Part shown: piece after piece, positions 79 through 26,228 of the stretch
How positions within the stretch are numbered: the stretch's first letter is position 1
Layout of the letters: each line of letters starts with the position of its first letter
Assembly (NCBI RefSeq): GCF_000148385.1
Contig: NC_014537.1
Span: 960,001-992,000, forward strand
Source of the DNA: Vulcanisaeta distributa DSM 14429
GTDB lineage: Archaea; Thermoproteota; Thermoprotei; Thermoproteales; Thermocladiaceae
Direction: 5' to 3'
DNA: 32,000 nucleotides
Position numbers and translations under genes: made by a program
The notes under the pieces: model-generated
What the model was told of the DNA's origin: nothing
Databases searched by the model: none
Seen by the model: the letters and a program-made list of their open reading frames with translations, nothing else

Positions 79-480
79 TCACCTCATCAACGCTATACTG
101 ACTAAGCCAATTATTAACCCGAGGAGGAGACCCGTATTTCCCAGGGCTATCTGTATTAAGAGCAGGACCAGCAATACTATTTTCATTAACCTACTTATCC
201 CACGGGCTTGACTATATAATGCATTGGTTATTAGGTATGTCATTATTAATATTAGTATTATAGATATGGTACCAATTATTCCGATATAACCCATCTGTAG
301 GACATTATTTATCTGCGATGTGTATATTGATGGGAATGCCGACATAATAGACTCTACAAAGCTTGAGTCTGTATAATACTCAAATTGAAGGTAAATGAGT
401 ATTCCAGCATTAATTAAGTACAATAGTATGCTTATCCCATAGAGTATATGCCATGCCCTAATCCCCTGCGCCTTACTCAT
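79..480 (-). CDS. small polytopic membrane protein, unknown function
   Basis: 133-aa ORF with an ATG start and about four hydrophobic helices. It is tightly packed with co-directional neighbours. Confidence 0.55.
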   Translation of the reverse strand: MSKAQGIRAWHILYGISILLYLINAGILIYLQFEYYTDSSFVESIMSAFPSIYTSQINNVLQMGYIGIIGTISIILILIMTYLITNALYSQARGISRLMKIVLLVLLLIQIALGNTGLLLGLIIGLVSIALMR

Positions 481-498
481 TGGGTAAAGCCACTACCC

Positions 499-1266
499 TT
501 AGGTTATAAATATTGCAATAATGACCCCAGCAAGCATGCTTATGAAGTGACCAAGCCTATTAATGCCGATGCCGTCTATCACGAGAACCGGTGGTATTGG
601 TATTAATAGCCACAATGATTCATAAACCGTGTACAGTATTATTAGGAAGTTGAGCAAATGCATAGGTCTAACAGGCCCCTTCACAGTATTTATCAACGAG
701 GCCGCTAGGACCGCCCCCATTAATCCCATGGTCATTGCTGATAAACCGTAAGTTGCGATAATCCTGTTATACATTAGGGATAGAATTACGGTAGAAACTC
801 CAATACCAATTATACCCGTTAGAACACCTGCCAGTAAGTAATACCTTAGTCTAAGCTCTAGCACGGCGATAGCCGTCACGAACATGAAGATGGGCAATGT
901 ACCAACTAGGTCAGTGACACTGTCCGGTAATAATGATATGAATAGGTAAATGATAACGTAGAGGAAGCCCCTAATTATACTCTGTCTCATCTCAGTAAGC
1001 GCCTCATTCAAAATTAATTCTGGTTTTATTAGAAAAATTGACGCGTAACTAATCAACACTATTAGCGTTATCACAGTTATATAGGAATAACCAATACCTA
1101 AGCCCTTACGTAACCTACTCAATATGTAAATAAACAGTATGAACAGTATGAACTCAGGAAGCAACGCGTAGTAACTCGGTATTAGTACTGCGACTAACGT
1201 ACTTATTGCCGCGATTATTAATACAGCTGGGTAATAAAGCACAAGGGCTGATGCCTTAATCCTCAT
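499..1266 (-). CDS. polytopic membrane protein, possibly rhomboid-family
   Basis: 255-aa ORF with an ATG start and 7-8 hydrophobic helices. GLSAMTMGLMGA resembles the rhomboid GxSGxxxG helix, and RLGHFISMLAGVIIA resembles the His helix. The family call is tentative. Confidence 0.5.
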   Translation of the reverse strand: MRIKASALVLYYPAVLIIAAISTLVAVLIPSYYALLPEFILFILFIYILSRLRKGLGIGYSYITVITLIVLISYASIFLIKPELILNEALTEMRQSIIRGFLYVIIYLFISLLPDSVTDLVGTLPIFMFVTAIAVLELRLRYYLLAGVLTGIIGIGVSTVILSLMYNRIIATYGLSAMTMGLMGAVLAASLINTVKGPVRPMHLLNFLIILYTVYESLWLLIPIPPVLVIDGIGINRLGHFISMLAGVIIAIFIT

Positions 1267-7360: not shown

Positions 7361-7560
7361 TGAATTTCAGATTAAGGGTTGAGGTATTAAGTAACTGTGT
7401 TGGTTGTGGGATATGCTGGACTGTGTGCCCAAAGGGCGTATTGGCAGGTAGGTTGAGGAGTAAGGCCTATGTGCTGAATGAGTCATTATGCTCAGGGTGC
7501 TTCTCCTGCCAGAACAACTGCCCATACTCAGCAATCAGGGTAACACCAATTCAGTACTAA
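7360..7560 (+). CDS. 2x[4Fe-4S] ferredoxin
   Basis: Two CxxCxxCxxxCP motifs ([12 protein letters not shown] and [12 protein letters not shown]). I prefer ATG 7360 over the track's GTG 7345 because of the TATA element at 7325-7334. Confidence 0.8.
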
Positions 7561-8261
7561 GTAATTAGTGGGAGTCCCGTTGATCTAATGAAATTTACAT
7601 ACCCACGGTCGTTAATAAGTCGTATAAATGCCTCCGTTAAGTCCCTACTCATGACCACGTAATCCCCTATGTAGGTAATTACATAATTAACAGCTCCAAT
7701 TAGGTAATCAGTGCTTAATTCACCAATCGAAATAAGTACCATTAAGTCAAGGGGTGTCGGCATTAATGGGCCTAATAAAATGAGGTTATCATATCTGGCG
7801 GCGTTCTTTATGAATTGAACGTAATCATCAACTACAACGGCAGACTGATCAGGTAGGGTTAAGGAAATAACTCCCACCTCCCTCCTAAAAAGCCCTAACC
7901 AAGTATCATAATCAACCTTACCACTAAGCCTATACCTAATTACCAGCCTGGCAATATCGACGCCTAAATCCACTGATCTCCTAAGCCTCTCAATACTATC
8001 ATAGCAATCAATCGTTGCTGAAGGTTCCATAACCATAATACCTCTTAAAAACTCCGGCACCCAACCCCAAAGCCTAACAAATGAACTCCCAAACCCCATG
8101 AGCAACTCCACGGCATCCCTGGGGTTCAGCACAGCTAACCTACAGAACTCCTGCGGTAATGGCAATGATAGTGATTTATAACGCTTAATAATAACCGTGA
8201 GAATATTCCTTAATATGGGCATTGAGGCCTCGATCCTTGGTGAGTAAATTAGCAGGTTCAT
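7557..8261 (-). CDS. hypothetical protein
   Basis: A 234-aa soluble-looking ORF with no motif I recognise. The track start at 8267 is TTG, so I prefer the ATG two codons downstream (8261). Confidence 0.55.
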   Translation of the reverse strand: MNLLIYSPRIEASMPILRNILTVIIKRYKSLSLPLPQEFCRLAVLNPRDAVELLMGFGSSFVRLWGWVPEFLRGIMVMEPSATIDCYDSIERLRRSVDLGVDIARLVIRYRLSGKVDYDTWLGLFRREVGVISLTLPDQSAVVVDDYVQFIKNAARYDNLILLGPLMPTPLDLMVLISIGELSTDYLIGAVNYVITYIGDYVVMSRDLTEAFIRLINDRGYVNFIRSTGLPLIT

Positions 8262-8403: not shown

Positions 8404-9135
8404 ATGAGTAATTACGAAGTCTTCACCGGGATTTGTGAACGCATTAATTGCCCGAGAAGCTATGTGGGCTTAATACTAGGTGAATTATCGGACTTAGGCG
8501 TTACCGAGATTCTCAGCGATGGCGCTGTTGAGTTTATGGGATTTAGGTTGTTGGGTAAGGGTCAAAATAGTTTTGTATTTAAGTGTCGTGTCGGTAATGA
8601 GTATTACGCCTGCAAGATTAGGCGTTTTGACTCATCAAGACCGAACTTAGTGAATGAGGGTAATTACCTGAGGCTTGCGAATTCCGTGGGTGTGGGGCCG
8701 AGGCTTATTAAGTATGCAAACGACGTATTGATTATGGAATTAATAAGTGGTGTACCTATACAGAGGTACGTAATTACGGCAGGCCCGATGGAATTAAGGA
8801 TGGTTCTTAAGGACTTACTTTGGCAATGCCGTAGGTTAGACTCCATAGGCCTTGCCCATAATGAGTTGAGTAGGCCTGAGGATCACGTAATCATTAGCAA
8901 TGGTAGGGCGTTCATAATAGATTTCGAAAGCGCCAGCTTAAATAGCAGGATTAGTAATGTTGCCCAGGTGCTGAATGCGTTGATAATGGGTAGGGGTTTT
9001 ATTCAGGATCGTGTTAGGGCGATTATGGGTATGAGTATTGACCTAAATTATTTACGTAGCGTCATTAAGAGGTATAAGGTTACGAGGAGTGATGAGGACT
9101 TTACACAAATACTAAGGTTACTTGGCCTTGAGTAA
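8404..9135 (+). CDS. RIO/Bud32-like small protein kinase with an atypical catalytic loop
   Basis: Gly-rich loop LGKGQNSFVFKC, Lys motif YACKIRR, catalytic-loop region LAHNELSRPEDHVII and metal-binding region FIIDFESAS. Confidence 0.7.
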   Translation: MSNYEVFTGICERINCPRSYVGLILGELSDLGVTEILSDGAVEFMGFRLLGKGQNSFVFKCRVGNEYYACKIRRFDSSRPNLVNEGNYLRLANSVGVGPRLIKYANDVLIMELISGVPIQRYVITAGPMELRMVLKDLLWQCRRLDSIGLAHNELSRPEDHVIISNGRAFIIDFESASLNSRISNVAQVLNALIMGRGFIQDRVRAIMGMSIDLNYLRSVIKRYKVTRSDEDFTQILRLLGLE

Positions 9136-11351: not shown

Positions 11352-12128
11352 TTATTGTTGTACTCCCAACCGCTCCTTAACCTCCTTAAGTAATAATGTC
11401 ATTGCATCACCAGCCTTACATTGTATGAATACATCGGCGATGTAATCAAGCTCCGTGGGCTCCATATTTATGATAATGACCTTACCACCCATCTCCTTAA
11501 CAAACATTGGTATGTAAGCCGCGGGATAAACAGAGAGTGAGGAACCGATGACTAAGACCGCATCACTCATTAGCGCTAATTTCCTAGCCTTATCGAAATC
11601 CTTAACTGGCTCTCCAAATAATACGGTATCAGGCTTAAGAATGCCACCGCATTCATCGCAGAGTGGCGGTACTTGACCACCATCAATCTTCTTAATAACG
11701 ACTTCCATTGGATATACACGGCCGCATGCAATGCATACAGCCCTCTTCATTGTACCATGAAGCTCAATCACGCTTCTAGAGCCAGCGGCTTGATGGAGTC
11801 CATCAACGTTTTGGGTAATTACCGCCTTTATGATGCCCAACTTTTCGAGCTCGGCCACGGCGTAGTGCGCCCTGTTGGGCTTAGCCACGAATAGCGTGCT
11901 CATCCTCATCCTATAAAACAGCCAGAAATCCTTTGGATGCTGCAGGAAGTAATCTATTGTCGCTATTTCAGGGCTATACTGCCTCCATAATCCTTGGGGA
12001 CCTCTAAAGTCGGGGATTCCTGACTCCGTGGATATGCCGGCGCCCGTGAAGGCTATTGCGTGCTTAGCATTGATCAGTATGTCGGCAGCCCTCTTAATAT
12101 CCTCCGTGTTGCACTGTTTTTCACTCAT
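11352..12128 (-). CDS. cobB: NAD-dependent protein deacetylase, Sir2 family
   Basis: GAGISTESGIPDFRG, TQNVDGLH and a zinc ribbon CxxC...CDEC. Confidence 0.95.
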   Translation of the reverse strand: MSEKQCNTEDIKRAADILINAKHAIAFTGAGISTESGIPDFRGPQGLWRQYSPEIATIDYFLQHPKDFWLFYRMRMSTLFVAKPNRAHYAVAELEKLGIIKAVITQNVDGLHQAAGSRSVIELHGTMKRAVCIACGRVYPMEVVIKKIDGGQVPPLCDECGGILKPDTVLFGEPVKDFDKARKLALMSDAVLVIGSSLSVYPAAYIPMFVKEMGGKVIIINMEPTELDYIADVFIQCKAGDAMTLLLKEVKERLGVQQ

Positions 12129-16088: not shown

Positions 16089-16129
16089 TCGAGGGATGAG
16101 TTTAAGTAGTTAAATTAATGCTTTGTTTG

Positions 16130-17215
16130 ATGAAGATAGCGATTATAGGCTTGAATCCAGGCACTGCGATTTATGCACAATACATGGCTAAGGACGGGCA
16201 TGACATCACTATATTCACAGAAAGCCAGGGTGACGTAATAATCATGGATTTACTACCGCATTCCCTCCTAAACATTGTGAATAAAGAATCAATTAAGTTA
16301 TTCACTAGGAAGTATTTAGAGGACGTACTTGGGATTAATGTAATAAATGTGAGGTTAAGTTCGATAATCATCAATGGGAATAGGGTATTGATTATGAATG
16401 AAAATTATGGACGGGGAGTTGAGGGTAAATACGACAGGGTTATAATTGGTTCTGAGGCGTTACCGAGGGAGTCAGGTGATTGCGTGAGTATTTATAGGGC
16501 TGCTTTATCACCGAGTAACTACATAATTAATGGTAATGATGCAGGTAAGAACACCGAGTCATTAATGCTCGTGACGGATCTCGGTGGTCGCGCCATTACG
16601 AATTCATCGACGGCTCTTGACGATGATATTCTCAAGTCACTACCAATCAATAAGAATGTAGGGGCTGGGGAATGCGTATCCACTGATTATGACGTGGTTA
16701 AGCCATCAATAGGCATGGTTAGTGGGGGTGATTGGTTTATCGGTAGGGGATTTACATTTAGGGACTCATTGAGTGGTATTGAGTATGTGGTTAATAGGGA
16801 TTATCAATTAATCATGATGGGGAAGTTACTGGCAATGAGGGATTTGGGGATCATTGATTCATTGCCATTGATGCCGCGCCTAGAGGTTGGTCTTTCCCGT
16901 AACTGGTCGTTTCTATCCGTGGGGCTTACACGGAATGAGTTAGGTACCGTTTTCAGGGATTTATCATCGTCTAGAGTGGCTTATCACTCGGATGGGGTTG
17001 ACATAGTGGCTAAGGTTATTCATAGGGGTAATAAGTTATTGAGTCTTCAGGTGTTGGCTAGGGGCATTAAGTTGTTCAATTGGTTCTCCTCGATTTATTC
17101 CCTAATCATGCTTAACAATACGGCTTACCTATTACTTGATATGGGTTATGAAGCCGTGTTTAATACTGTTCGTGGATTACTCGAACAATTAATGCTAAAC
17201 TTATACAATATATAG
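16130..17215 (+). CDS. pyridine-nucleotide-disulfide-oxidoreductase-like protein with degenerate dinucleotide-binding motifs
   Basis: MKIAIIGLNPGTAIY replaces GxGxxG. YDRVIIGSEALPR, a second degenerate Rossmann segment IINGNDAGKNTE and a C-terminal dimerisation-like SVGLTRNELG...AKVIHRGNKLLSLQVLARG are also present. I prefer ATG 16130 to ATG 16118 (Rossmann N-terminus, TATA-like sequence at 16100-16117). Confidence 0.55.
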   Translation: MKIAIIGLNPGTAIYAQYMAKDGHDITIFTESQGDVIIMDLLPHSLLNIVNKESIKLFTRKYLEDVLGINVINVRLSSIIINGNRVLIMNENYGRGVEGKYDRVIIGSEALPRESGDCVSIYRAALSPSNYIINGNDAGKNTESLMLVTDLGGRAITNSSTALDDDILKSLPINKNVGAGECVSTDYDVVKPSIGMVSGGDWFIGRGFTFRDSLSGIEYVVNRDYQLIMMGKLLAMRDLGIIDSLPLMPRLEVGLSRNWSFLSVGLTRNELGTVFRDLSSSRVAYHSDGVDIVAKVIHRGNKLLSLQVLARGIKLFNWFSSIYSLIMLNNTAYLLLDMGYEAVFNTVRGLLEQLMLNLYNI

Positions 17216-17276: not shown

Positions 17277-18602
17277 GTGCCTGGAATCCTGGCTAACGTC
17301 GATTATGAGGAACCACTCACTAGGTATAGAATAAGGGAGGTGCTCATTGAGGCTCGTAGGCGGTCAATAAGTTATATAGATAAGATGAAGCAGGAGGTTC
17401 TTGCGGACTCATTCTACGTACACTATAGGCAACCAATACTCAAGATGCCCACGGAGAACGAGGACATGGAAACCTCACTATGGAGATTTGTGGTCTCCAC
17501 ATACATAAGGAGTGAGGCCTATAATGACGTGTCCAGGATAACTAGGTTAAATGGTAGGTTGTCCAGGGTAATGGCGATTAAGTTACTCAAGGTGTATAAT
17601 AGCATCCTGAGTAAGATGGATAGGAACGAAGCCTTTAGGCAAATGGTTGAGTCGGCAATGGATCAGAAGAGTGCATCCTCAAGGGAGAGTAGGATGAACC
17701 TAGAACGGGAGGTTCGCTCATTGATTAATTTCTACGTCGGAAGCATGAAGAAGGTCAGCGAGACCGTTAACAAGGTTAAGATGCTCTTTGGGGATTCCGT
17801 GGGCCATGAAATAGCGGATATACTACTGAGCACGGACATCGACCCATACAGGCTCAGGTTAATCTCAATGCTCAACTCACTGATTAAGTTGATTGTGGAT
17901 ACCAGGTACACTGTAGACGTTGTTGAGGACGTAGATGCTGAGCGGGTTGGCACCGTGGGTGGGGTTAAGCGTATGACGAGGGCCTCGGAGCTTAGGGATA
18001 TGATACCGAGTGAGAGGATGCTCATGAAATTCGCCAAGCCAGTATTCGCGTATAAACTGGCCATGGGTAATGTACTGGTTAGGGAGAGGAGGGCCATTAA
18101 GAAGCCTAAGATATACATGCTAATTGATAAAAGTGGTTCGATGTTTTACACAGTAAACATAAACATATTTGAGGTGGGCGCCATTAGTAAGATTACCTGG
18201 GCCACGGCCCTAGCCGTGATACTGGCTATGAAGGGTGGTAACCTAGCCGTGAGATTCTTCGACCAGCAGGTATACCCAATGCTGACTAATAAGAATGATA
18301 TCATAAAGATGTTGCTCTCCTTAATACCGCTGGGTGGCACGGACATAACGAATGCCGTTAGGGCTGCAGTACAGGATGCCGTGGATAAACCATCATTGAG
18401 GGATTACAAATTAGTCGTTATAACCGACGGTGAGGACGATAATGTTGACCCGACGGTATTTAATAAGGCGAAGTCCATATTCAGGTCAGTCAAGGTATTA
18501 CTAATTGGTGGTGAGAATAGTGTTATCGAGGAGAATGCGGAAACGATAAAGATCCAGGAATTAACAAGCGAGAGCCTATCCCACACAATTAAGAAGATCT
18601 AG
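17277..18602 (+). CDS. von Willebrand factor A (CoxE-like) domain protein
   Basis: MIDAS motif MLIDKSGSM, GGTDITNA and VVITDGED, after an N-terminal helical region of about 270 aa. The GTG start lies about 27 nt downstream of the TATA-like CTTTATTAATG. Confidence 0.85.
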   Translation: MPGILANVDYEEPLTRYRIREVLIEARRRSISYIDKMKQEVLADSFYVHYRQPILKMPTENEDMETSLWRFVVSTYIRSEAYNDVSRITRLNGRLSRVMAIKLLKVYNSILSKMDRNEAFRQMVESAMDQKSASSRESRMNLEREVRSLINFYVGSMKKVSETVNKVKMLFGDSVGHEIADILLSTDIDPYRLRLISMLNSLIKLIVDTRYTVDVVEDVDAERVGTVGGVKRMTRASELRDMIPSERMLMKFAKPVFAYKLAMGNVLVRERRAIKKPKIYMLIDKSGSMFYTVNINIFEVGAISKITWATALAVILAMKGGNLAVRFFDQQVYPMLTNKNDIIKMLLSLIPLGGTDITNAVRAAVQDAVDKPSLRDYKLVVITDGEDDNVDPTVFNKAKSIFRSVKVLLIGGENSVIEENAETIKIQELTSESLSHTIKKI

Positions 18603-20502: not shown

Positions 20503-22074
20503 TCAATTCTCAGGATTAGGCAACCCCAAGTACTCGTTTATTGCGTGGTTAACGTCATCCATACTCCGTAAGTTTACGTTCATAATTTTCGATGGAATGG
20601 GGATGGCTAAGTAATCATCCTCAAGAAACCTGGTCCAACTCTCCGATATTTTCCTACCGAATACCATCAATACCTCCCTGAATATTGCTGAGTTATACCA
20701 AGCGGCAATCATTGGGTTGTTGGTCCTTATTACGTAGAAGTTCTTTGAGGCACACAACGGCTTATTGCTGTAATTAGCAATAACCTTATGCCTAGTAAGG
20801 TCCACCTTATCATGGATGAACACATGACCAAAGGGCATCTTAGACTTTAACTGCATCCATACATGTCGATACCACTTATCGCCAAATTTTAGGGCTGGTA
20901 CCCCCAACCCCTCACCCCACCTAATGTACCTCAATACATCGCCCTCTGGCTCATCACCTATGGTGAGCACGTAAAACCCAGGATCCCGAATTAAGACCTC
21001 ATCCTCGTAATACTCAGGTCTCCTAAGGCATGGGGTTAAGTACTTCCTTGGCAGTTCCAATTGCTCGCCGTTATTGGAAATAACCACGTAATCACGGGTC
21101 TCCTCAACAATCCTCCAGTACTTATTTGGTATGAAGAAGAAGTCTGGACCATACATCTCAATACCCCTAACCACTTCATGCCTCCCTAAATAACGCATTA
21201 ATCCTCTGTCCAGGGCATCCTCCATAATGGAGATAAGCCTCATTGCCCTATCGTAATTAAACAACGACAACCAATTCCTATCAGCGAAGGTGGGCAACCT
21301 CCTTAAATCCACAAACCCCACCCTCCTCAAGCCCCCATCGTAGTAGTAAATACCGGTCTTAGTGCTTGAATTATTAATAACACCCAACAACCCGCCCCTC
21401 TTCCTAATGAAGATTATCAACTCCTTAAACCCACTACCATCGCTGAATGACGGAGCCACCTTATTCTCCACAAGACCAATCACATCATACCTCAACCTCA
21501 ACAGTCTCTTCACACCCTCACCCTGCTCCGTGTAGAACGTGGACGCCGGCATCACGAGGATTGCATAACCACCATCCCTAAGAATGTGGTCTATCAGGAA
21601 GAAGGATAGAACATGGAGACCAGGATCCCCCCTCATAATGAGTCTCCCATAACCCATTGATTCCATCAACTTCAATAGTTCATACCTATTTCGAACCAAT
21701 TGCCACCTAACGAAGGGTGGGTTAGAAATAATTATATCAGCCCTATACCCCCACGCAACCTTAAAGGCATCACCACAAACAACCTCAACATCATTATATA
21801 ACGAAGACAAAACCCTACGGGCCAATTCACACGGTCCCTCGTTAATCTCTATGGCAATAACCTTCCTAGGCTTAATAAGGTCATTCACCGCCGAAAGCGT
21901 GACCCCCGAACCAGCGAATGGATCCATAACCACCACATCACTCCTATACTCCTCACCTAACTCCTGAAGGAAACTTCTAATCACGGTCAATCCATCACGG
22001 CTAGTGTAGTACGATGAGGTACCCCTCCTATCCACGGTCCTCTGAATCTCGTACTGCTCATCGACTAAGTACAT
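20503..22074 (-). CDS. N6-adenine DNA methyltransferase, gamma class (TaqI/Eco57I-like) with a large C-terminal recognition region
   Basis: SSYYTS (motif X-like), DPFAGSG (motif I, SAM binding) and IISNPPF (motif IV), in gamma-class order, followed by about 300 aa of C-terminal region. An SD-like GGTGAGAGG lies upstream of the ATG. Confidence 0.9.
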   Translation of the reverse strand: MYLVDEQYEIQRTVDRRGTSSYYTSRDGLTVIRSFLQELGEEYRSDVVVMDPFAGSGVTLSAVNDLIKPRKVIAIEINEGPCELARRVLSSLYNDVEVVCGDAFKVAWGYRADIIISNPPFVRWQLVRNRYELLKLMESMGYGRLIMRGDPGLHVLSFFLIDHILRDGGYAILVMPASTFYTEQGEGVKRLLRLRYDVIGLVENKVAPSFSDGSGFKELIIFIRKRGGLLGVINNSSTKTGIYYYDGGLRRVGFVDLRRLPTFADRNWLSLFNYDRAMRLISIMEDALDRGLMRYLGRHEVVRGIEMYGPDFFFIPNKYWRIVEETRDYVVISNNGEQLELPRKYLTPCLRRPEYYEDEVLIRDPGFYVLTIGDEPEGDVLRYIRWGEGLGVPALKFGDKWYRHVWMQLKSKMPFGHVFIHDKVDLTRHKVIANYSNKPLCASKNFYVIRTNNPMIAAWYNSAIFREVLMVFGRKISESWTRFLEDDYLAIPIPSKIMNVNLRSMDDVNHAINEYLGLPNPEN

Positions 22075-22403
22075 TAGGTCCTCTCACCCAATTCCCTAAT
22101 CTTTCTAAGTCCGAGCTTTATAACTTCCACGAATAATAAGGGTATCCTTACTCACTATATTACATTATAATCAGTGGTAATCCCATAATGCGGATAATGA
22201 TTAACATTAAGTAAAGAAAGACCATAATTACACTAGATTAAGTGCATCATCACTACACGGGGAATTTAGCAAAAATAACTGTGAAAGGAAAGAATACTCA
22301 TGGGCATTAGGACTCTAAGCCGGTTATTACTACTAAGTATTAGTAGGAACGGAAGAAGTAATGCAACAATAACTAACATGAGATCATTGAAACAGAACAC
22401 GGA

Positions 22404-22412
22404 GGAGGTGAT
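22404..22412 (+). promoter_or_regulatory. Shine-Dalgarno-like sequence for the first ATPase gene
   Basis: GGAGGTGAT lies within GGAGGAGGTGAT, 5 nt upstream of ATG 22418. It is complementary to the canonical 16S 3' end AUCACCUCC. No TATA-like element sits at -27. Confidence 0.5.
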
Positions 22413-22417
22413 TATTA

Positions 22418-24133
22418 ATGTCGAGCTTGAACTCGAGCTTACTGAAGGTAAATAATAAACTAATCATTGGGCTTCGCGTAAAGAAGGAGTTCAACGCATG
22501 GGACATGATAAAGATACTCGATGGTTTGAGAATTACCGTGATAAAGGATGAGGTAGGGTTCTTAATACTTCACACGCCAGCTCACGTTCCATTATTCACG
22601 GGTATACATAGGAATAGAGTGATGCAGCTGCTCAATAGGTGGGTTGATTATGTTGAGCCATTGCCATCAGGAATAACGCTGAGTATAATCGATAATGCAT
22701 CGATAATGTTTTCAGGGGTTAAGGGTAGAGTAACTCCAGTCCAGGACTCAACACCAATCATAATGACAATATGCAAGTCAGGTGATGACCAGGTAAGGTA
22801 TACATTATTCCTAAGAGGAACAACCCGCGGAAAAACCGACGTATTATCATGTGACGATAAGGCATCCTTACCGCAGCTTCAGGATAACGTAGATCTGACA
22901 CTCAAGCCATCACCAAGGCCTGGAAGTATGTTCATGACAAGGTACTACCCAATAGACGTTGACTTAACGAGACACCTAATGGTTTTAGGCGCCACCGGCT
23001 CAGGAAAGACTACACTCGTGAAATCACTAATAAATAGTGCCCTTCAGAAGAACGTGTTTAATAAGATCGTGATCTTCGATCCAACAGGTGAGTACTCACT
23101 AGACCTGGTGGGGCGTGGTTACGTGGCCGTACCCGGCATAGACATTGCCGTTAATCCATTGGCATTACCAAGGCATAGGGCTAGTGAGTTGCTCTCAATG
23201 GCTATTCAAGCAGCTGCTCTCATATACGGTGAGAATGATAATGGCGGTTTCTCATTCATCCAACTTGAGGTCCTTGATAAAGCCCTTGAAAGACTTGGTG
23301 ATAGGAATAACCTGAAGGACCTATACGTAGTGTTGAATGATCTTGAGCAGGAGTTGAGGAGGAATGATTACCTAAATGCCATTTCCGCAGTGAGGCGTAG
23401 GTTGAGGAAGGTTATGATAGCCGCGTTAATGAGGAATGCGCTAAGTGCTAGTGCTGCTCAGTCCAGGTTATTGGTCATAAACATGGCGCCCCTTTACTTC
23501 GTGTCTCAGGTCGCCGCAATCATATTTACACTAACATTTCTTGAAGTGCTCAGTGGCATTCTTAGGGAATCCCTTGTCGTCATTGATGAAGCCCATAGAA
23601 TCCTCAATAGGTATATGGTTGGTGAGTCAATCATTGAGAGGTTGATTAGGGAGGGTAGGCATGATGGTGTTACGCTTATACTTGTGACACAGGATCCCCT
23701 TGACATTAAGAGGAACGTACTCGACATTGTTGGTCATTACGCAGTCTTTAAGCTGAATGGTAAGTCTGCGGTTGAGGCAGCGGACCTATTGGGTATTGGT
23801 AAAGACATGGTCATTAAATTGAAACCCCTCGAGTTTTATTACCACAGTAATGACATTACCGTTAAGGCGCAGATAATGGGTAATCCAGGGATTAATTACC
23901 TAATGGCCTCAGACGTTATTTACAAGAGGTTACTCGAGAGGGTTAATGATGAGGACTACGTTAATGCCATGATTAAGAGGTTTGGGCGTTCATTAAACCC
24001 TGTGTTGGTTCCTCAGGTGGTTGAGTTAGGTGAGAGGTTGGGTTATGACGTTAGGACCATAATCCAACTGGCGGCTAGGAAGGACCCTGAGTACTATAAG
24101 CTGCTTTCCAGGGTGATTATTGGTGAGGAATAA
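22418..24133 (+). CDS. HerA/FtsK-superfamily P-loop ATPase (DUF87-like) with unknown N- and C-terminal domains
   Basis: Walker A LGATGSGKTT (about residue 190), FDPTGEY, Walker B LVVIDEAHRIL and REGRHDGVTLILVTQDP. The roughly 185-aa N-terminal domain and 90-aa C-terminal helical domain have no motifs I recognise. Confidence 0.85.
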   Translation: MSSLNSSLLKVNNKLIIGLRVKKEFNAWDMIKILDGLRITVIKDEVGFLILHTPAHVPLFTGIHRNRVMQLLNRWVDYVEPLPSGITLSIIDNASIMFSGVKGRVTPVQDSTPIIMTICKSGDDQVRYTLFLRGTTRGKTDVLSCDDKASLPQLQDNVDLTLKPSPRPGSMFMTRYYPIDVDLTRHLMVLGATGSGKTTLVKSLINSALQKNVFNKIVIFDPTGEYSLDLVGRGYVAVPGIDIAVNPLALPRHRASELLSMAIQAAALIYGENDNGGFSFIQLEVLDKALERLGDRNNLKDLYVVLNDLEQELRRNDYLNAISAVRRRLRKVMIAALMRNALSASAAQSRLLVINMAPLYFVSQVAAIIFTLTFLEVLSGILRESLVVIDEAHRILNRYMVGESIIERLIREGRHDGVTLILVTQDPLDIKRNVLDIVGHYAVFKLNGKSAVEAADLLGIGKDMVIKLKPLEFYYHSNDITVKAQIMGNPGINYLMASDVIYKRLLERVNDEDYVNAMIKRFGRSLNPVLVPQVVELGERLGYDVRTIIQLAARKDPEYYKLLSRVIIGEE

Positions 24134-26228
24134 ATTAGTAATTGCCATTCTCGTCTCATTAATTACCTACCTCATTGACCATAGGATTTACCTAATCATT
24201 ATTAACACGTTAATACCAATCGTACTAATTAAGGACTTAATTGGGCTTAGGGAACAGGTTAGGCTATTTATTAATGGTGGTGATCCCGTAGAATCCGCGA
24301 GGATTGGTTTAGGGAGTGTCATGGTGAATGATAGGGAGTTAGTGGGTCTTAGGATTTTGGGTGTGGCTTATACGTTTGATTCCGCGTTTGAGGAGGCTTT
24401 GGCTAGGGCTCGTGCTATGGTTCACCTATTCTCTAAGTATAGGGCTGTTATTTTAATATCCTCGAGTGGAGGCTACATTATTGGCGTTGATAAGGGTTAT
24501 TATCATGAATTGGTTGCGGAACTTGAACGACTCAATGTTAAGGTTACCAGGATCAGCGGTTTTGAGTTGGCTAATGCCCTTAGAATGAGTATTAGGCGCA
24601 GGTCATTAGCTAGGCTTCCACTCCTTATACTGCCTATCCCACTCCTCATTATGTCGTCGGCCTACGTATTCCTTGCGATCTCATTACTATACATCATTTA
24701 TTCCATTAATGACCTCTCAAGGAGGAGGTTCGTGGTTAATGTTGGGTTTAATAATGAGGTTATTCACGACCTGAGGGCTATGATGGCCATGGATAGTACG
24801 ATGATAAGGACTGAGGCGCTGAGCCTTATGGGTAGGGTTTCCCGTGCCCGTGCAAGCATTTTATTAATTATCTCGAGCAATGATGAGCTTAGGGACTGGA
24901 TTAAGAACACCGCCAGTAGGGCTTATGGTAAGTTCCTAATGCTTAGGCATATTAGGTACTTCCTCAGTTATAAGGACTTTGAGATTGTATTAAGGAGGAT
25001 CCAACAGGGTGAGGATGTTTACTCACTTTACCTGGCAAGCACAGCGAGGTTCGAATCATCGTTTAAGTGGGGATGGACACCATCAGTACCAATATCAAAG
25101 ATTTTAGGTATTAATCACGGCCGTGCATGGACCATGGAACTAAACCTAGCAGTATTAATGCCGTTCTCATTTCAATTAATTAATGAAGGCCACGGCTTAG
25201 CAGTAATAGGTAGGGACATTAATAATAGGGAGATTCACTGGTCATTTAGCGGTTCAAGCCCCCATGTATTAATTATAGGGCCAACAGGTGCAGGCAAGAC
25301 AACACTGGCCATGAGTATTGCCTACCAGGTTAAGCGTAGGTTAGGGAATAGGATTAAGTTAATAATAATTGATCCCCATGGACATACCGAGGTCCTTAGC
25401 AGGTTGATTAATGTTAGGACCATAGACTTAAGTAGAAATAGAATTACAGTGAACGAGCCATCAATACTAATTGAGTCAGTACGACTATCAAACCCGCTTT
25501 TCGCAATCGGTACCGAGGGCGCATTGCTACGTATGGCGGGTATTGGTGATGAAATTTCGAGCATTGATGAATTAATGAGAAGACTTAAGGAATTATCAAG
25601 CGATTTAATACTGAAGGAGGCGTATTATAACCTATACAATGCACTTGCACCAATAATTAATTACTACAACGGCGTAAATAATGACGCACTGCTTAATGTT
25701 TATGATCTACTTAATGGTGACGCAATCTTCACAATGAGGTCAATACTAAGCAATGAATTACTTAGGTACTTAACACTGCTCATAATACTCTCCATTAGTA
25801 AGAAGGCGATTTCCGAGTGCCCTAATCCACCGTGTCCATTAAGGTACCTCATCATCATTGATGAGGCCCATAACGTACTTAAACTACCGAATGAATACAG
25901 AGTGCTTGGTGTTGATGACCCAGTGGAGAGGATGTTTAGGGAGTTGAGGAAGTTCGGCGTTGCACTATTTATTTTGGTACAACCACCACTTGATGCCCTT
26001 AATGAGGGTATTCTGGGAAATATTGGTACTGCCATTATTCTATCGGGGAACTCACAATACGTCTCTCACGTAGTATCAAACATAAGCGGTATTGATGGTG
26101 ATGATGCTACATGGTTATTGAGTGGGCGGTTCAGAGCATTGGTGTTGCGTCAGGGTGAGCCTAAGCCTATTAAGCTATCTCGACTTCACGTCCCTAAGGA
26201 GTTGATAATGGAGAAAGCAATTGGATGA
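24120..26228 (+). CDS. membrane-anchored HerA/VirB4/TraG-like P-loop ATPase
   Basis: TTG 24120 or GTG 24123 start overlaps the upstream stop, with an SD-like GGGTGA at 24111-24116. Hydrophobic segments at about residues 6-38 and 164-195. Walker A IIGPTGAGKTT (about residue 387), IIDPHGH, Walker B LIIIDEAHNVL and RELRKFGVALFILVQPP. Confidence 0.85.
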   Translation: MVRNKLVIAILVSLITYLIDHRIYLIIINTLIPIVLIKDLIGLREQVRLFINGGDPVESARIGLGSVMVNDRELVGLRILGVAYTFDSAFEEALARARAMVHLFSKYRAVILISSSGGYIIGVDKGYYHELVAELERLNVKVTRISGFELANALRMSIRRRSLARLPLLILPIPLLIMSSAYVFLAISLLYIIYSINDLSRRRFVVNVGFNNEVIHDLRAMMAMDSTMIRTEALSLMGRVSRARASILLIISSNDELRDWIKNTASRAYGKFLMLRHIRYFLSYKDFEIVLRRIQQGEDVYSLYLASTARFESSFKWGWTPSVPISKILGINHGRAWTMELNLAVLMPFSFQLINEGHGLAVIGRDINNREIHWSFSGSSPHVLIIGPTGAGKTTLAMSIAYQVKRRLGNRIKLIIIDPHGHTEVLSRLINVRTIDLSRNRITVNEPSILIESVRLSNPLFAIGTEGALLRMAGIGDEISSIDELMRRLKELSSDLILKEAYYNLYNALAPIINYYNGVNNDALLNVYDLLNGDAIFTMRSILSNELLRYLTLLIILSISKKAISECPNPPCPLRYLIIIDEAHNVLKLPNEYRVLGVDDPVERMFRELRKFGVALFILVQPPLDALNEGILGNIGTAIILSGNSQYVSHVVSNISGIDGDDATWLLSGRFRALVLRQGEPKPIKLSRLHVPKELIMEKAIG

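What the first reader, a model, noticed from the sequence alone, without database searches (positions are those of the whole stretch)
20503..26228. A divergent N6-adenine methyltransferase and a translationally coupled pair of HerA/FtsK-type ATPases may form an uncharacterised DNA-translocation or defence module
Seen in the sequence:
- ORF 20503-22074 (-) is a gamma-class MTase (SSYYTS, DPFAGSG, NPPF) with a C-terminal region of about 300 aa. I can recognise no partner endonuclease.
- Across the longest non-coding gap in the window (343 nt), two large P-loop ATPases are encoded back to back with a 14-nt overlap (stop 24131-24133, start TTG 24120 or GTG 24123).
- Both carry the HerA/FtsK/VirB4 motif series. 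ATPase 1 has GATGSGKTT, FDPTGEY, VVIDEAH and REGRHDGVTLILVTQDP. ATPase 2 has GPTGAGKTT, IDPHGH, IIIDEAH and RELRKFGVALFILVQPP. They therefore look like diverged paralogues.
- Only the second has hydrophobic membrane segments. The first has an unknown N-terminal domain of about 185 aa and a C-terminal helical domain of about 90 aa.
- All three genes have SD-like sequences and leaders, whereas most other genes in the window look leaderless.
- The flanking genes are housekeeping (archaemetzincin, SpeH), with junctions of only 35 and 29 nt. There is no integrase, repeat scar, pilin, VirB6-like channel or nuclease.

Established knowledge: HerA-superfamily ATPases drive HerA-NurA end resection, TraG/TrbE-like functions of Sulfolobales conjugative plasmids, the Ced and Ted DNA-import systems, and the SIR2-HerA and DUF4297-HerA defence systems. 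In each case a recognisable effector or channel partner is adjacent.

Inference: this trio fits none of those layouts. I see three possibilities:
- a methylation-linked, ATP-driven DNA-translocating defence system
- a stripped-down DNA import or export motor with a membrane-anchored coupling-protein-like subunit
- an orphan MTase that is merely adjacent to the ATPase pair
Basis: partly seen in the sequence, partly recalled or inferred. Interest (0 to 1): 0.8.

Follow-up and report, generated by a model that had tools for sequence, protein, structure and literature searches.

The report
Orphan methylase beside extra TedB-like ATPases
The three genes are not one system: the methylase is the leftover half of a decayed restriction-modification cassette that landed next to an older, Vulcanisaeta-specific operon encoding a second, undescribed pair of motor ATPases related to the archaeal Ted/Ced DNA-transfer machinery.

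Summary
The window is from Vulcanisaeta distributa. The trio is not a unit.

**ATPase pair.** It lies between archaemetzincin and SpeH in all seven Vulcanisaeta lineages examined.

**Methylase (MTase).**
- It occupies this site in only two lineage groups.
- Elsewhere it lies 8 kb away or beside TruD.
- In Korarchaeum its homologue pairs with an R-HinP1I-type endonuclease.
- A frameshifted remnant of that endonuclease sits beside the MTase in the V. moutnovskia-like genome. It is absent from the window.
- So the MTase is an orphan survivor of a mobile Type II R-M cassette.

**ATPase 2.**
- It has two membrane hairpins (4 TM).
- It is a divergent paralogue of the membrane-bound, ParA-adjacent ATPase of Ted loci, probably TedB (hhalign 99.9%, 502 columns).
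- Vulcanisaeta carries that ATPase elsewhere in the genome too.
- The V. moutnovskia orthologue, VMUT_1866, is not the published TedB or TedD.

**ATPase 1.** It is a soluble HerA-clade ATPase with unmatched N- and C-terminal domains.

**Operon.**
- A conserved 48-54 aa ORF probably forms its first cistron.
- Both ATPases keep their catalytic motifs and are under purifying selection.

**Function.** It is inferred, not shown: an accessory two-ATPase motor for Ted-type DNA transfer. MADS, SIR2-HerA, HerA-NurA, CedB and CedD membership all fail.

The parts
20503..22074 (-). Orphan N6-adenine DNA methyltransferase, 523 aa. Motif I (DPFAGSG) comes before motif IV (NPPF), followed by a C-terminal region of about 280 aa that is probably the target-recognition domain. 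It is not part of the ATPase operon.
   Evidence: Weak Pfam hits to N6_N4_Mtase, Eco57I and N6_Mtase. Full-length homologues at 36-81% identity occur across thermophilic archaea. The Korarchaeum homologue lies beside an R-HinP1I-like endonuclease. An endonuclease pseudogene lies beside the L004 orthologue and none is in the window. The gene sits at three or more different genomic positions in Vulcanisaeta.
22075..22225 (-). The MTase's own 5' region, with a TTTATA box and a GGTGA SD-like site. It is present only in genomes that carry the MTase at this site.
   Evidence: In DNA alignment A5 this segment aligns only between the window and L004, and is absent from L002 and L001. SD scan.
22226..22299 (+). 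Conserved 5' region of the ATPase operon. It has an A/T-rich TATA-like box (AAAAATAA, 22271-22278) 22-29 nt upstream of the small ORF's ATG.
   Evidence: It is homologous in all lineages whether or not the MTase is present. The A/T box is seen in 5 of 6 lineages. Promoter function is inferred.
22300..22455 (+). Probable first cistron: a 51-aa ORF with a basic, hydrophobic N-terminus and an acidic C-terminus (EEVIINVELELEL). It overlaps the ATPase 1 start by 38 nt.
   Evidence: It is open in 6 of 6 lineages (48-54 aa) with an invariant ATG. dN/dS is 0.16-0.53 in the non-overlapping part. It has no TM segment and no database match. Support is moderate.
22404..22412 (+). A perfect 9-nt Shine-Dalgarno-like site (GGAGGTGAT) upstream of ATPase 1.
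   Evidence: This is the strongest match among the 33 ORFs scanned in the window.
22418..24133 (+). ATPase 1: a soluble HerA-clade P-loop ATPase of 571 aa. It has a family-specific N-terminal domain (aa 1-185), an ATPase core (aa ~178-467) and a helical C-terminal domain (aa 470-571).
   Evidence: DUF87 at 9e-16. Homologues occur only in Vulcanisaeta, at 98-45% identity. Walker A, Walker B and arginine residues are invariant. dN/dS is 0.12. The N-terminal domain is modelled at pLDDT about 80-88. The N- and C-terminal domains match nothing. Fold hits are HerA and VirB4.
24120..26228 (+). ATPase 2: a membrane-anchored TedB-like ATPase of 701-702 aa, probably starting at GTG 24123. Layout: TM hairpin 1 (aa ~5-44), cytoplasmic domain (45-161), TM hairpin 2 (162-199), linker domain (200-375), ATPase (376-690).
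   Evidence: TM scan. hhalign against the Ted-locus ATPase family gives 99.9%, E = 3.7e-35, over 502 columns. The linker alone gives 96.6%. Only 8 hits fall below 1e-30 among 1.84 billion proteins. The orthologue is VMUT_1866. dN/dS is 0.13. Fold hits are SsoHerA, the VirB4 C-terminal domain and TrwB.

Best explanation
Two unrelated things lie side by side.

(1) The MTase is the surviving methylase of a horizontally mobile Type II restriction-modification cassette (MTase plus an R-HinP1I-family endonuclease). The cassette inserted between archaemetzincin and the ATPase operon in the ancestor of the V. distributa / V. moutnovskia group. The endonuclease then decayed. It is a pseudogene in the V. 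moutnovskia-like genome and is deleted in V. distributa. That leaves an orphan adenine methylase with its own promoter.

(2) The ATPase genes belong to an older operon conserved across the genus: a small 48-54 aa ORF, then ATPase 1, then ATPase 2, each overlapping the next.
- ATPase 2 is a divergent paralogue of the membrane-bound VirB4-like ATPase of the Thermoproteales Ted DNA-transfer locus, probably TedB. The two share the layout of hairpin, domain, hairpin, linker and ATPase.
- ATPase 1 is a soluble HerA-clade ATPase with private N- and C-terminal domains.

Inferred mechanism:
- The two proteins form ring ATPases at the cytoplasmic face of the membrane. This parallels the two-ATPase logic of CedB/CedD and VirB4/VirD4.
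- They act as an accessory or alternative motor for Ted-type DNA transfer.
- They would use the pilin and channel (TedC, TedA) encoded elsewhere.

What is shown: gene structure, homology, synteny, selective constraint and the decay of the R-M cassette.
What is inferred: oligomeric state, a DNA substrate and any link to the Ted apparatus.
For: Synteny:
- The ATPase pair lies between Peptidase_M54 and AdoMet_dc in V. thermophila, the 60% clade, the 74-75% clade and the 80% clade.
- The MTase is at this site only in the window and in L004, L005 and L010.
- Its 63%-identical orthologue is 8 kb away beside PaREP1 in L002.
- Another orthologue is beside TruD in L011.

R-M origin:
- The Korarchaeum homologue is convergent with an R-HinP1I-like gene.
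- tblastn finds frameshifted endonuclease pieces in the L004 spacer (E = 1.7e-33). There is a shorter remnant in L010 and nothing in the window.
- MTase dS is 2.5, against about 1.0 for the flanking genes in the same genome pair.
- Only MTase-bearing loci have the extra ~150 nt of 5' region.

ATPase 2:
- hhalign against the Ted-locus family gives 99.9% over 502 columns, including TM hairpin 2 and the linker.
- That family lies beside ParA, a pilin-like gene and a polytopic gene in Thermocladium. This matches Beltran 2023 (PMC9905601).
- The family is also present in V. distributa, V. sp. JCM 14467 and V. thermophila.
- The nearest outside relatives, P0168 and P0167, lie in clusters with pilin-like and 1086-1139 aa polytopic proteins.

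Not the known TedB or TedD: VMUT_1866 against VMUT_1001 and VMUT_0996, and Vdis_0137 and Vdis_0134.

Functional state:
- Walker A, Walker B and arginine residues are invariant.
- dN/dS is 0.12-0.13.
- The overlaps and SD sites are conserved.

Precedent for two cooperating paralogous ATPases in DNA import: PMC11868833 and PMC11823120.
Against: - No pilin, VirB6-like channel, ParA or Rad50 gene lies in the 32-kb window. The link to the Ted apparatus therefore rests on paralogy alone.
- Vulcanisaeta already has its own TedB and TedD, so a further pair has no obvious necessity.
- The identification of the A4 family as TedB rests on matching the published locus description, not on accessions. The pilin-like ORF gave no hit to the solved TedC, 8DFT. 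I could not map the draft Vulcanisaeta locus onto the Vdis and VMUT numbering.
- The domain between the two hairpins of ATPase 2 shows no detectable similarity to the TedB counterpart.
- The structure models are weak (pLDDT 65 and 51). No complex prediction could be run.
- ATPase 1 was not put through the exhaustive HMM search. Its restriction to Vulcanisaeta rests on a word-indexed search and two pattern scans.
Confidence: 0.5

Rival explanations
1. The MTase and the two ATPases form one methylation-linked, ATP-driven defence system, either MADS-like or a new type. The MTase would mark self DNA and the ATPases would translocate on or attack unmodified DNA.
For: In PADLOC the best hits are mad2 for the MTase (2.9e-22) and mad8 for both ATPases (9.7e-25 and 4.4e-21). 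The genes are divergently arranged and all three have SD-like sites.
Against: - The MTase is absent from this site in four of six lineage groups, and lies elsewhere in two of them.
- Its real partner is a decayed R-HinP1I-type endonuclease.
- The MADS model requires mad6, mad7 and mad8. No mad1 or mad3-7 is found in ten flanking genes.
- The mad8 model also grazes PhoH, so it is generic.
- The mad2 hit covers only the catalytic domain.
- There is no nuclease or other effector.
Confidence: 0.03
2. The ATPase pair is a HerA-type defence or DNA-repair motor, like SIR2-HerA, DUF4297-HerA or HerA-NurA, whose effector is encoded elsewhere or is one of the unknown domains of ATPase 1.
For: - ATPase 1's best solved-structure matches are anti-phage HerA proteins (SIR2-HerA, 9.7e-15; Foldseek).
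- NCBIfam HerA_antiphage at 6.9e-14 and HerA_Thermprot at 1.3e-12.
- The N- and C-terminal domains are uncharacterised.
- The pair evolves 2-3 times faster than the flanking genes.
Against: - All HerA family scores are far below the curated cut-offs: 47-51 bits against 800.
- No NurA, Mre11, Rad50, SIR2 or DUF4297 gene is adjacent. The only Sir2 gene is a canonical deacetylase 10 kb away.
- The position is a fixed core-genome one, with no defence-island neighbours.
- The membrane-anchored partner resembles T4SS-type ATPases, not defence HerA proteins.
Confidence: 0.12
3. The pair is a domesticated remnant of a second Ted-like or conjugative (T4SS-like) cluster whose pilin and channel genes were lost. 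It now does something independent of the Ted apparatus, such as autonomous membrane-associated DNA translocation or the movement or assembly of another substrate.
For: - The closest non-Vulcanisaeta relatives (P0168, P0167) are embedded in complete pilin plus polytopic-protein clusters.
- The pair lacks such neighbours.
- It is restricted to one genus.
- Its sequence divergence from TedB is high, at 19-23% identity.
Against: - There is no integrase, repeat scar or compositional anomaly.
- There are no viral or plasmid relatives.
- The pair occupies the same syntenic slot in every lineage sampled, including V. thermophila, so any acquisition predates the genus.
- Retention of the TedB-type linker domain suggests a retained interaction surface.
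Confidence: 0.25

Closest known systems
TedB, the VirB4-like membrane ATPase of the Thermoproteales Ted DNA-exchange system (Beltran et al. 2023, PMC9905601; Recalde et al. 2025, PMC11823120)
   Same: ATPase 2 has the same architecture: two TM hairpins, an intervening domain, a linker domain and a HerA/VirB4-type ATPase. The two are homologous over 502 co-linear columns (99.9%). A shared DR(I/L)xxGE-type motif lies in the linker. Both occur in the same genomes.
   Different: - Identity is only 19-23%.
- ATPase 2 is not in the Ted locus and has no adjacent ParA, TedC or TedA.
- It is not the gene listed as TedB (VMUT_1866 against VMUT_1001).
- Its Walker B context is DEAH rather than DEAY, and it carries a CPxPPCP motif.
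- It is translationally coupled to a soluble ATPase.
- It is restricted to Vulcanisaeta.
The CedB / CedD pair of the Sulfolobales Ced DNA-import system (Wu et al. 2025, PMC11868833; Recalde et al. 2025)
   Same: Both are pairs of diverged HerA-clade paralogues that are presumed to work together at the membrane. The best NCBIfam names are CedB for ATPase 2 (1.5e-15) and CedD for ATPase 1 (5.5e-14).
   Different: - Scores are 52-57 bits against cut-offs of 600-700.
- CedB and CedD are encoded apart, and both usually carry TM segments. Here the genes overlap and only one protein is membrane-anchored.
- CedB and CedD are reported absent from Thermoproteales.
- The N-terminal domain of ATPase 1 shows no detectable relation to anything.
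Bacterial VirB4 (with VirB3) and the VirD4/TrwB coupling protein of type IV secretion
   Same: The ATPase fold is shared: VirB4 C-terminal domain 4AG5/4AG6 at TMt 0.53, and TrwB. Both use two ATPases. An N-terminal two-TM module can be fused or separate. In V. thermophila, hairpin 1 is a separate 68-aa ORF. From general knowledge, VirB3 and VirB4 likewise occur fused or split.
   Different: TIGR00929 scores 21-42 bits against a cut-off of 643. There is no relaxase and no VirB6, VirB8 or VirB10 neighbour. The similarity is analogy plus distant superfamily homology only.
Type II restriction-modification systems with an R-HinP1I/MspI-fold endonuclease, and orphan adenine methylases
   Same: The MTase has full-length homologues next to R-HinP1I-like endonucleases. 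Its catalytic motifs are in the order I then IV. Its distribution is patchy and looks horizontally spread.
   Different: The endonuclease is completely missing in V. distributa. The recognition sequence and activity are unknown. The MazE/AbrB-like upstream gene seen in other lineages is also absent here.
MADS, the methylation-associated defence system (Maestri et al., bioRxiv 10.1101/2023.03.30.534895)
   Same: PADLOC's best models are mad2 (MTase) and mad8 (both ATPases).
   Different: MADS is an eight-gene operon with mad6, mad7 and mad8 mandatory. None of mad1 or mad3-7 is present. The hits cover generic catalytic domains only. The MTase-ATPase linkage is not conserved.

Membership tests
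MADS defence system | Presence of mad6, mad7 and mad8 within 10 genes (the mandatory genes of the published MacSyFinder model) | tested here: not met
   Model definition. PADLOC scans of the three genes and of ten flanking genes find only mad2-like and mad8-like generic domains.
MADS defence system | MTase and ATPase genes conserved together as an operon | tested here: not met
   The MTase is absent from this site in L001, L002, L003, L032 and L033, and lies elsewhere in L002 and L011.
Type II R-M cassette (orphan MTase remnant) | N6-adenine MTase catalytic motifs (FxGxG and NPPF/Y) | tested here: met
   DPFAGSG and NPPF in the translation. Pfam, PADLOC and PDB hits to adenine DNA MTases.
Type II R-M cassette (orphan MTase remnant) | A cognate restriction endonuclease adjacent to the MTase in relatives | tested here: met
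   An R-HinP1I-like gene is convergent with the Korarchaeum homologue. A homologous 190-aa neighbour is found in Acidilobus, a frameshifted remnant in L004 and L010, and nothing in the window.
Type II R-M cassette (orphan MTase remnant) | Sequence-specific DNA methylation activity | not testable with these tools
   This needs a SMRT or Nanopore methylome of V. distributa compared with MTase-less Vulcanisaeta.
TedB (Ted-system VirB4-like ATPase) | HerA/VirB4-type ATPase with an N-terminal transmembrane domain, co-linearly homologous to the Ted-locus ATPase | tested here: met
   For ATPase 2: TM scan; hhalign 99.9%, E = 3.7e-35, 502 columns; linker domain 96.6%.
TedB (Ted-system VirB4-like ATPase) | Encoded in the Ted locus with ParA, TedC and TedA, and identical to the gene catalogued as TedB | tested here: not met
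   There are no Ted-like neighbours in the window. The orthologue is VMUT_1866, whereas the catalogue lists TedB as VMUT_1001 and Vdis_0137. A separate Ted-locus family member exists in Vulcanisaeta.
TedB (Ted-system VirB4-like ATPase) | Functions in Ted pilus biogenesis or DNA transfer | not testable with these tools
   No genetics or expression data are available.
CedB (NCBIfam NF041017) / CedD (NF053655) | Score above the curated equivalog cut-off (700 / 600 bits) | tested here: not met
   ATPase 2 against CedB scores 56.9 bits. ATPase 1 against CedD scores 51.7 bits.
HerA-NurA end-resection helicase | HerA equivalog score, plus adjacent nurA, mre11 and rad50 | tested here: not met
   HerA_Thermprot scores 46.9 and 20.5 bits against a cut-off of 800. 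The neighbours are archaemetzincin and SpeH.
SIR2-HerA / DUF4297-HerA defence | An adjacent SIR2 or DUF4297 effector, plus an anti-phage HerA equivalog score | tested here: not met
   HerA_antiphage scores 51.3 bits against a cut-off of 800. No effector is adjacent. The only Sir2 gene (11352-12128) is a canonical Sir2-family protein 10 kb away.
Bacterial-type VirB4 (TIGR00929) | Score above the subfamily cut-off (643 bits) | tested here: not met
   Scores are 41.5 bits (ATPase 1) and 21.2 bits (ATPase 2).

The most novel reading that the evidence does not exclude
The small ORF, ATPase 1 and ATPase 2 form a self-contained heteromeric membrane DNA translocase that is a new, genus-specific branch of the archaeal T4SS-derived machinery. 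One possibility is a dedicated export-side or direction-switching motor that complements the import-type TedB/TedD pair. In that case ATPase 1's unique N- and C-terminal domains and the small acidic protein would serve as substrate-recognition (coupling) elements.
Probability: 0.15. Interest if true: 0.7.

Novelty: new variant of a known kind. Interest (0 to 1): 0.38.

Why it matters
How archaeal Ced and Ted systems move DNA is an open question: how many ATPases they need, and what sets the direction. In 2025 two groups showed that Sulfolobales need two paralogous ATPases (CedB and CedD). One of those papers also catalogued TedB and TedD in Thermoproteales.

This locus shows that Vulcanisaeta keeps a further pair that has not been catalogued. 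The pair is translationally coupled, under purifying selection, and sits away from the Ted locus. One member is a clear TedB paralogue. That gives a natural case of ATPase duplication and specialisation in this machinery. It also provides a defined set of genes (VMUT_1866 and its upstream neighbours) to include in expression or interaction studies.

The work also removes a false lead. The adjacent methylase is an ordinary orphan left by R-M decay, with the intermediate pseudogene stage preserved in a sister species. The PADLOC MADS hits here are generic.

The significance is limited by restriction to one genus and by the lack of any functional data.

Tried and rejected
- **MADS or another methylation-linked defence system.** Rejected on membership and on non-conserved linkage (and the synteny calls).
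- **The small upstream ORF as a pilin or membrane partner.** Rejected, because it has no TM segment.
- **The window pair as the published TedB and TedD.** Rejected on locus tags.
- **CedB/CedD orthology.** Rejected: scores are about ten-fold below the cut-offs, and genuine Ted-locus ATPases score similarly against those models.
- **Recent tandem duplication of ATPase 1 and ATPase 2.** Rejected. Each scores better against outside proteins than against the other: A1 gives 82 bits to P0256 but 33 bits to ATPase 2, and A4 gives 135 bits to ATPase 2 but 56 bits to ATPase 1.
- **Viral, plasmid or integrated-element origin.**
  - No relatives in IMG/VR, PLSDB or BFVD.
  - No flanking repeats or GC anomaly.
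- **ATPase 1's N- or C-terminal domains related to a TedB or ATPase 2 domain or to a Pfam family.** Nothing was found.
- **Confirming TedC identity by sequence against PDB 8DFT.** No hit.
- **Mapping the draft Vulcanisaeta Ted-like locus (L017, L021) onto Vdis and VMUT gene numbers.** This was inconclusive, because the drafts are frameshifted and from a different species.
- **Technical limits.**
  - The alignment that included the Vulcanisaeta sequences was too divergent for the genome scan.

Full report
**Observation.**
- The three ORFs are at 20503-22074 (-), 22418-24133 (+) and 24120-26228 (+), and they carry all the quoted motifs.
- The intergenic distances are 35, 343 and 29 nt.
- ATPase 1 ends at TAA 24131-24133, and ATPase 2 can start at TTG 24120 or GTG 24123. 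The public annotation of 701 aa and the 11-nt overlap in the orthologues favour GTG 24123.
- A hydropathy scan finds four membrane segments in ATPase 2, forming two hairpins at about aa 5-44 and 162-199. ATPase 1 has no real membrane segment.
- The SD claim holds. ATPase 1 is preceded by a perfect GGAGGTGAT, ATPase 2 by GGTGAT and the MTase by GGTGA. Only 2 of the other 30 ORFs reach a 5-nt match.
- The window is from Vulcanisaeta distributa: ATPase 2 is 100% identical to a protein on a 2.37-Mb V. distributa record.

**The trio is not a unit.** ATPase 1 homologues were found only in Vulcanisaeta, at 98-45% identity.
- In every contig examined, the ATPase pair lies between archaemetzincin (Peptidase_M54) and SpeH (AdoMet_dc). 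This covers V. thermophila (L001), the 60% clade (L002, L003), the 74-75% clade (L032, L033) and the V. moutnovskia-like 80% clade (L004, L005, L010).
- The MTase occupies the site only in the window and in the 80% clade.
- In L002 a 63%-identical orthologue sits 8 kb away next to a PaREP1 gene.
- In Vulcanisaeta sp. JCM 16161 the orthologue is next to TruD.
- V. thermophila has no copy within 10 kb.
- A DNA alignment shows that the ~190 nt upstream of ATPase 1 is homologous in all lineages. MTase-bearing genomes have an extra ~150 nt that carries the MTase's own TTTATA box and leader. So the 343-nt gap is two 5' regions placed back to back.
- For the same genome pair, the MTase's synonymous divergence (dS 2.5) is more than twice that of the flanking genes (about 1.0).

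**What the MTase is.** Its full-length family is spread patchily through thermophilic archaea at 36-81% identity. Members include Acidilobus, Nanopusillus, Sulfolobaceae, Pyrobaculum, Korarchaeum, Fervidicoccus and Thermofilaceae.
- In Korarchaeum cryptofilum the homologue follows a MazE/AbrB-like small gene and is convergent with an R-HinP1I-family endonuclease.
- In Acidilobus a homologous 190-aa gene occupies the same position.
- tblastn with these endonucleases finds frameshifted pieces in the 1.1-kb spacer beside the MTase in L004 (E = 1.7e-33 and 1e-26). L010 has a shorter remnant and the window has nothing.
- The MTase is therefore the orphan survivor of a Type II R-M cassette, with the decay series preserved across sister genomes.
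- The PADLOC mad2 hit covers only the catalytic domain.

**What ATPase 2 is.** An exhaustive HMMER search with the family profile against 1.84 billion representatives found only eight hits below 1e-30. All were Vulcanisaeta proteins or fragments. After that comes a gap down to 97 bits or less.
- Among the weaker hits is a set of proteins of about 690 aa. They align co-linearly and share the layout of hairpin, domain, hairpin, linker and ATPase at 19-23% identity.
- Profile-profile comparison with that set (A4) gives 99.9% probability and E = 3.7e-35 over 502 columns. The match includes the second hairpin and the linker. The linker alone gives 96.6%.
- A genome scan places the A4 family in Thermocladium, Caldivirga and other Thermoproteaceae. 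It also places it in V. distributa JCM 11216 and Vulcanisaeta sp. JCM 14467. One member is a V. thermophila protein.
- In Thermocladium the gene follows a ParA-like gene. It is followed immediately by a 149-aa protein with a signal peptide and two TM segments, and then by a 914-aa polytopic protein.
- That is the arrangement Beltran et al. describe for tedB, tedC and tedA (PMC9905601).
- So ATPase 2 is a divergent paralogue of the probable TedB, and both copies coexist in Vulcanisaeta.
- Its two closest relatives outside the genus also sit in clusters with pilin-like and 1086-1139 aa polytopic proteins. These are P0168, which shares a CPxPPCPxR(Y/W)...DEAH motif with ATPase 2, and P0167.

**Is it already described?** Recalde et al. 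2025 list the following:

| Species | TedC | TedA | TedB | TedD |
|---|---|---|---|---|
| V. distributa | Vdis_0149 | Vdis_0150 | Vdis_0137 | Vdis_0134 |
| V. moutnovskia | VMUT_1011 | VMUT_1012 | VMUT_1001 | VMUT_0996 |

- The V. moutnovskia orthologue of ATPase 2 is VMUT_1866, about 850 genes away. The window pair is therefore neither the catalogued TedB nor TedD.
- Wu et al. 2025 report CedB and CedD as absent from Thermoproteales.
- I found no paper that mentions this pair.
- Caveat: I could not tie the A4 family to Vdis_0137 by accession. The Vulcanisaeta drafts I retrieved are frameshifted, and their gene order did not map cleanly onto the published numbering.

**What ATPase 1 is.** It is a HerA-clade ATPase: DUF87 at 9e-16, anti-phage HerA structures at 1e-14, and Foldseek hits to SIR2-HerA, TrwK/VirB4, TdpAB and HerA-NurA.
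- Every match is confined to aa ~178-467.
- The N-terminal domain (aa 1-185) is modelled at pLDDT about 80-88. Neither it nor the helical C-terminal domain (aa 470-571) matches Pfam, TedB or ATPase 2.
- All named-family scores are far below the cut-offs: CedD 52 bits against 600, HerA 47-51 against 800, VirB4 42 against 643.
- The best-scoring outside proteins are themselves unnamed, sub-threshold members of an archaeal Ced/Ted/HerA-like radiation.
- ATPase 1 and ATPase 2 share only the ATPase domain. Each scores better against outside proteins than against the other, so they are not a recent tandem duplicate.

**Functional state and operon structure.**
- Walker A, Walker B (DE) and the downstream arginines are invariant in both families.
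- dN/dS is 0.12-0.13 against the 80% clade. Amino-acid divergence is 2-3 times that of the flanking housekeeping genes.
- Gene callers predict a 48-54 aa ORF that overlaps the ATPase 1 start by 35-41 nt in all six lineages.
- That ORF has an invariant ATG and an A/T-rich box 22-30 nt upstream in five of the six. Its start is basic and hydrophobic, and its C-terminus is acidic (EEV.(V/I)DVELEL). dN/dS in the non-overlapping part is 0.16-0.53.
- Together with the strong SD in front of ATPase 1, this suggests a leaderless first cistron followed by two SD-dependent, overlapping cistrons. I rate this as probable, not proven.
- In V. thermophila the first hairpin of ATPase 2 is a separate 68-aa ORF. 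Two distinct 68-aa clusters exist in the protein library. This recalls the fused and split forms of VirB3 and VirB4 (general knowledge).

**Rivals.**
- *Defence.* MADS membership fails, and ten flanking genes have no PADLOC hits. The mad8 model even grazes PhoH. There is no adjacent effector for SIR2-HerA, DUF4297-HerA or HerA-NurA. The only Sir2 gene is a canonical deacetylase 10 kb away.
- *Mobile element.* There are no relatives in IMG/VR, PLSDB or BFVD. There are no repeats or GC anomaly. The syntenic slot is fixed.
- *Remnant of a lost second Ted-like cluster that now acts independently.* This cannot be excluded, and I give it 0.25.

**Mechanism (inferred).**
- ATPase 2 is anchored by two hairpins, with its intervening domain, linker and ATPase all on the cytoplasmic side. 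This follows from the even number of TM segments.
- ATPase 1 is soluble and is made in stoichiometric coupling with ATPase 2.
- CedB/CedD are both required for DNA import, and VirB4/VirD4 also work as a pair. By analogy, the most economical model is a two-ring or mixed-ring motor at the membrane.
- This motor would serve Ted-type DNA transfer through the TedA/TedC apparatus encoded elsewhere. ATPase 1's private domains, and perhaps the small acidic protein, would supply substrate or partner recognition.
- Nothing here shows a DNA substrate, oligomeric state or interaction.

**Verdict.** The trio interpretation is refuted, and the reading 'orphan MTase next to an ATPase pair' is right. The pair is a new, genus-restricted variant within the known Ted/Ced/VirB4-HerA kind. 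Interest is moderate (0.38).

Noticed in passing
window 22300-22455 (+); L004 9883-10041; L033 509-673; L032 318-476; L002 9889-10041; L001 9889-10035: A 48-54 aa ORF overlaps the ATPase 1 start by 35-41 nt and is open in all six lineages. It has an invariant ATG and an A/T-rich box 22-30 nt upstream. Its C-terminus is acidic (EEV.(V/I)DVELEL). dN/dS is 0.16-0.53. It is probably a leaderless first cistron of the operon. It has no TM segment and no database match.
   Followed up: partly
L001 11715-11921 and 11944-13785 (V. thermophila); proteins P0176, P0205: In V. thermophila the first TM hairpin of ATPase 2 is a separate 68-aa ORF, followed by a 613-aa remainder. Two distinct 68-aa clusters in the protein library match the same N-terminal profile positions, so the split looks real rather than a sequencing error.
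   Followed up: partly
L004 ~7362-8093; L010 ~8590-8930: A frameshifted remnant of an R-HinP1I-family restriction endonuclease lies between archaemetzincin and the MTase in the V. moutnovskia-like genome. It is shorter in a second assembly and absent from the window. This is a preserved decay series of an R-M cassette.
   Followed up: yes
L007 5805-6011; L008 5773-5997; L009 449-598: Outside Vulcanisaeta, homologues of the MTase are often preceded by a small MazE/AbrB (SpoVT-AbrB) gene that abuts or overlaps the MTase start. This may be a controller protein of the R-M cassette. No such gene exists upstream of the window MTase.
   Followed up: no
window ATPase 2 aa 567-573 (about 25818-25838); P0168 in L029: A CPxPPCP motif with two invariant cysteines lies just before Walker B. 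It is shared by the Vulcanisaeta family and by the outside relative P0168, but not by the Ted-locus family. It may be a metal or disulfide site. Its function is unknown.
   Followed up: no
L021 6418-8325 and 8310-10022 (V. distributa JCM 11216): Downstream of the Ted-locus-type ATPase lies another overlapping gene pair (635 aa with weak AAA_16/nSTAND3 P-loop hits, plus 570 aa with no hits; 16-nt overlap). The neighbourhood differs from that of Vulcanisaeta sp. JCM 14467 (L017), so this region is variable.
   Followed up: no
window 16118-17215 (+) and 17277-18602 (+): Two adjacent genes of unknown function are syntenic in every Vulcanisaeta locus examined. One is 365 aa. The other is 441 aa with a weak VWA_CoxE / von Willebrand A hit.
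   Followed up: no
window 11352-12128 (-): A canonical Sir2-family gene (PF02146, 169 bits) lies about 10 kb from the ATPase pair. It is mentioned only because SIR2-HerA defence systems exist. It is not adjacent, and nothing links it to the pair.
   Followed up: partly
window 79-480 (-) and 499-1266 (-): Two adjacent membrane proteins lie 21 kb from the ATPase pair, next to CobD. One is 133 aa with about 3 TM segments. The other is 255 aa with about 7-8 TM segments and no Pfam match at 1e-5. They show no BLAST similarity to the Ted-locus membrane proteins retrieved here.
   Followed up: partly
L029 (Logan DRR667334 contig, 9.2 kb) and L030/L031 (Thermoprotei MAG): These are unannotated Ted/T4SS-like clusters. 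L029 runs: ATPase, a 340-aa protein, a 118-aa pilin-like protein, a 261-aa 4-TM protein, and a 1139-aa polytopic protein. L030 and L031 carry a run of small signal/TM proteins, a 1086-aa polytopic protein, and a 367-aa plus 357-aa split ATPase. They appear to be further undescribed members of the archaeal DNA-transfer machinery.
   Followed up: partly
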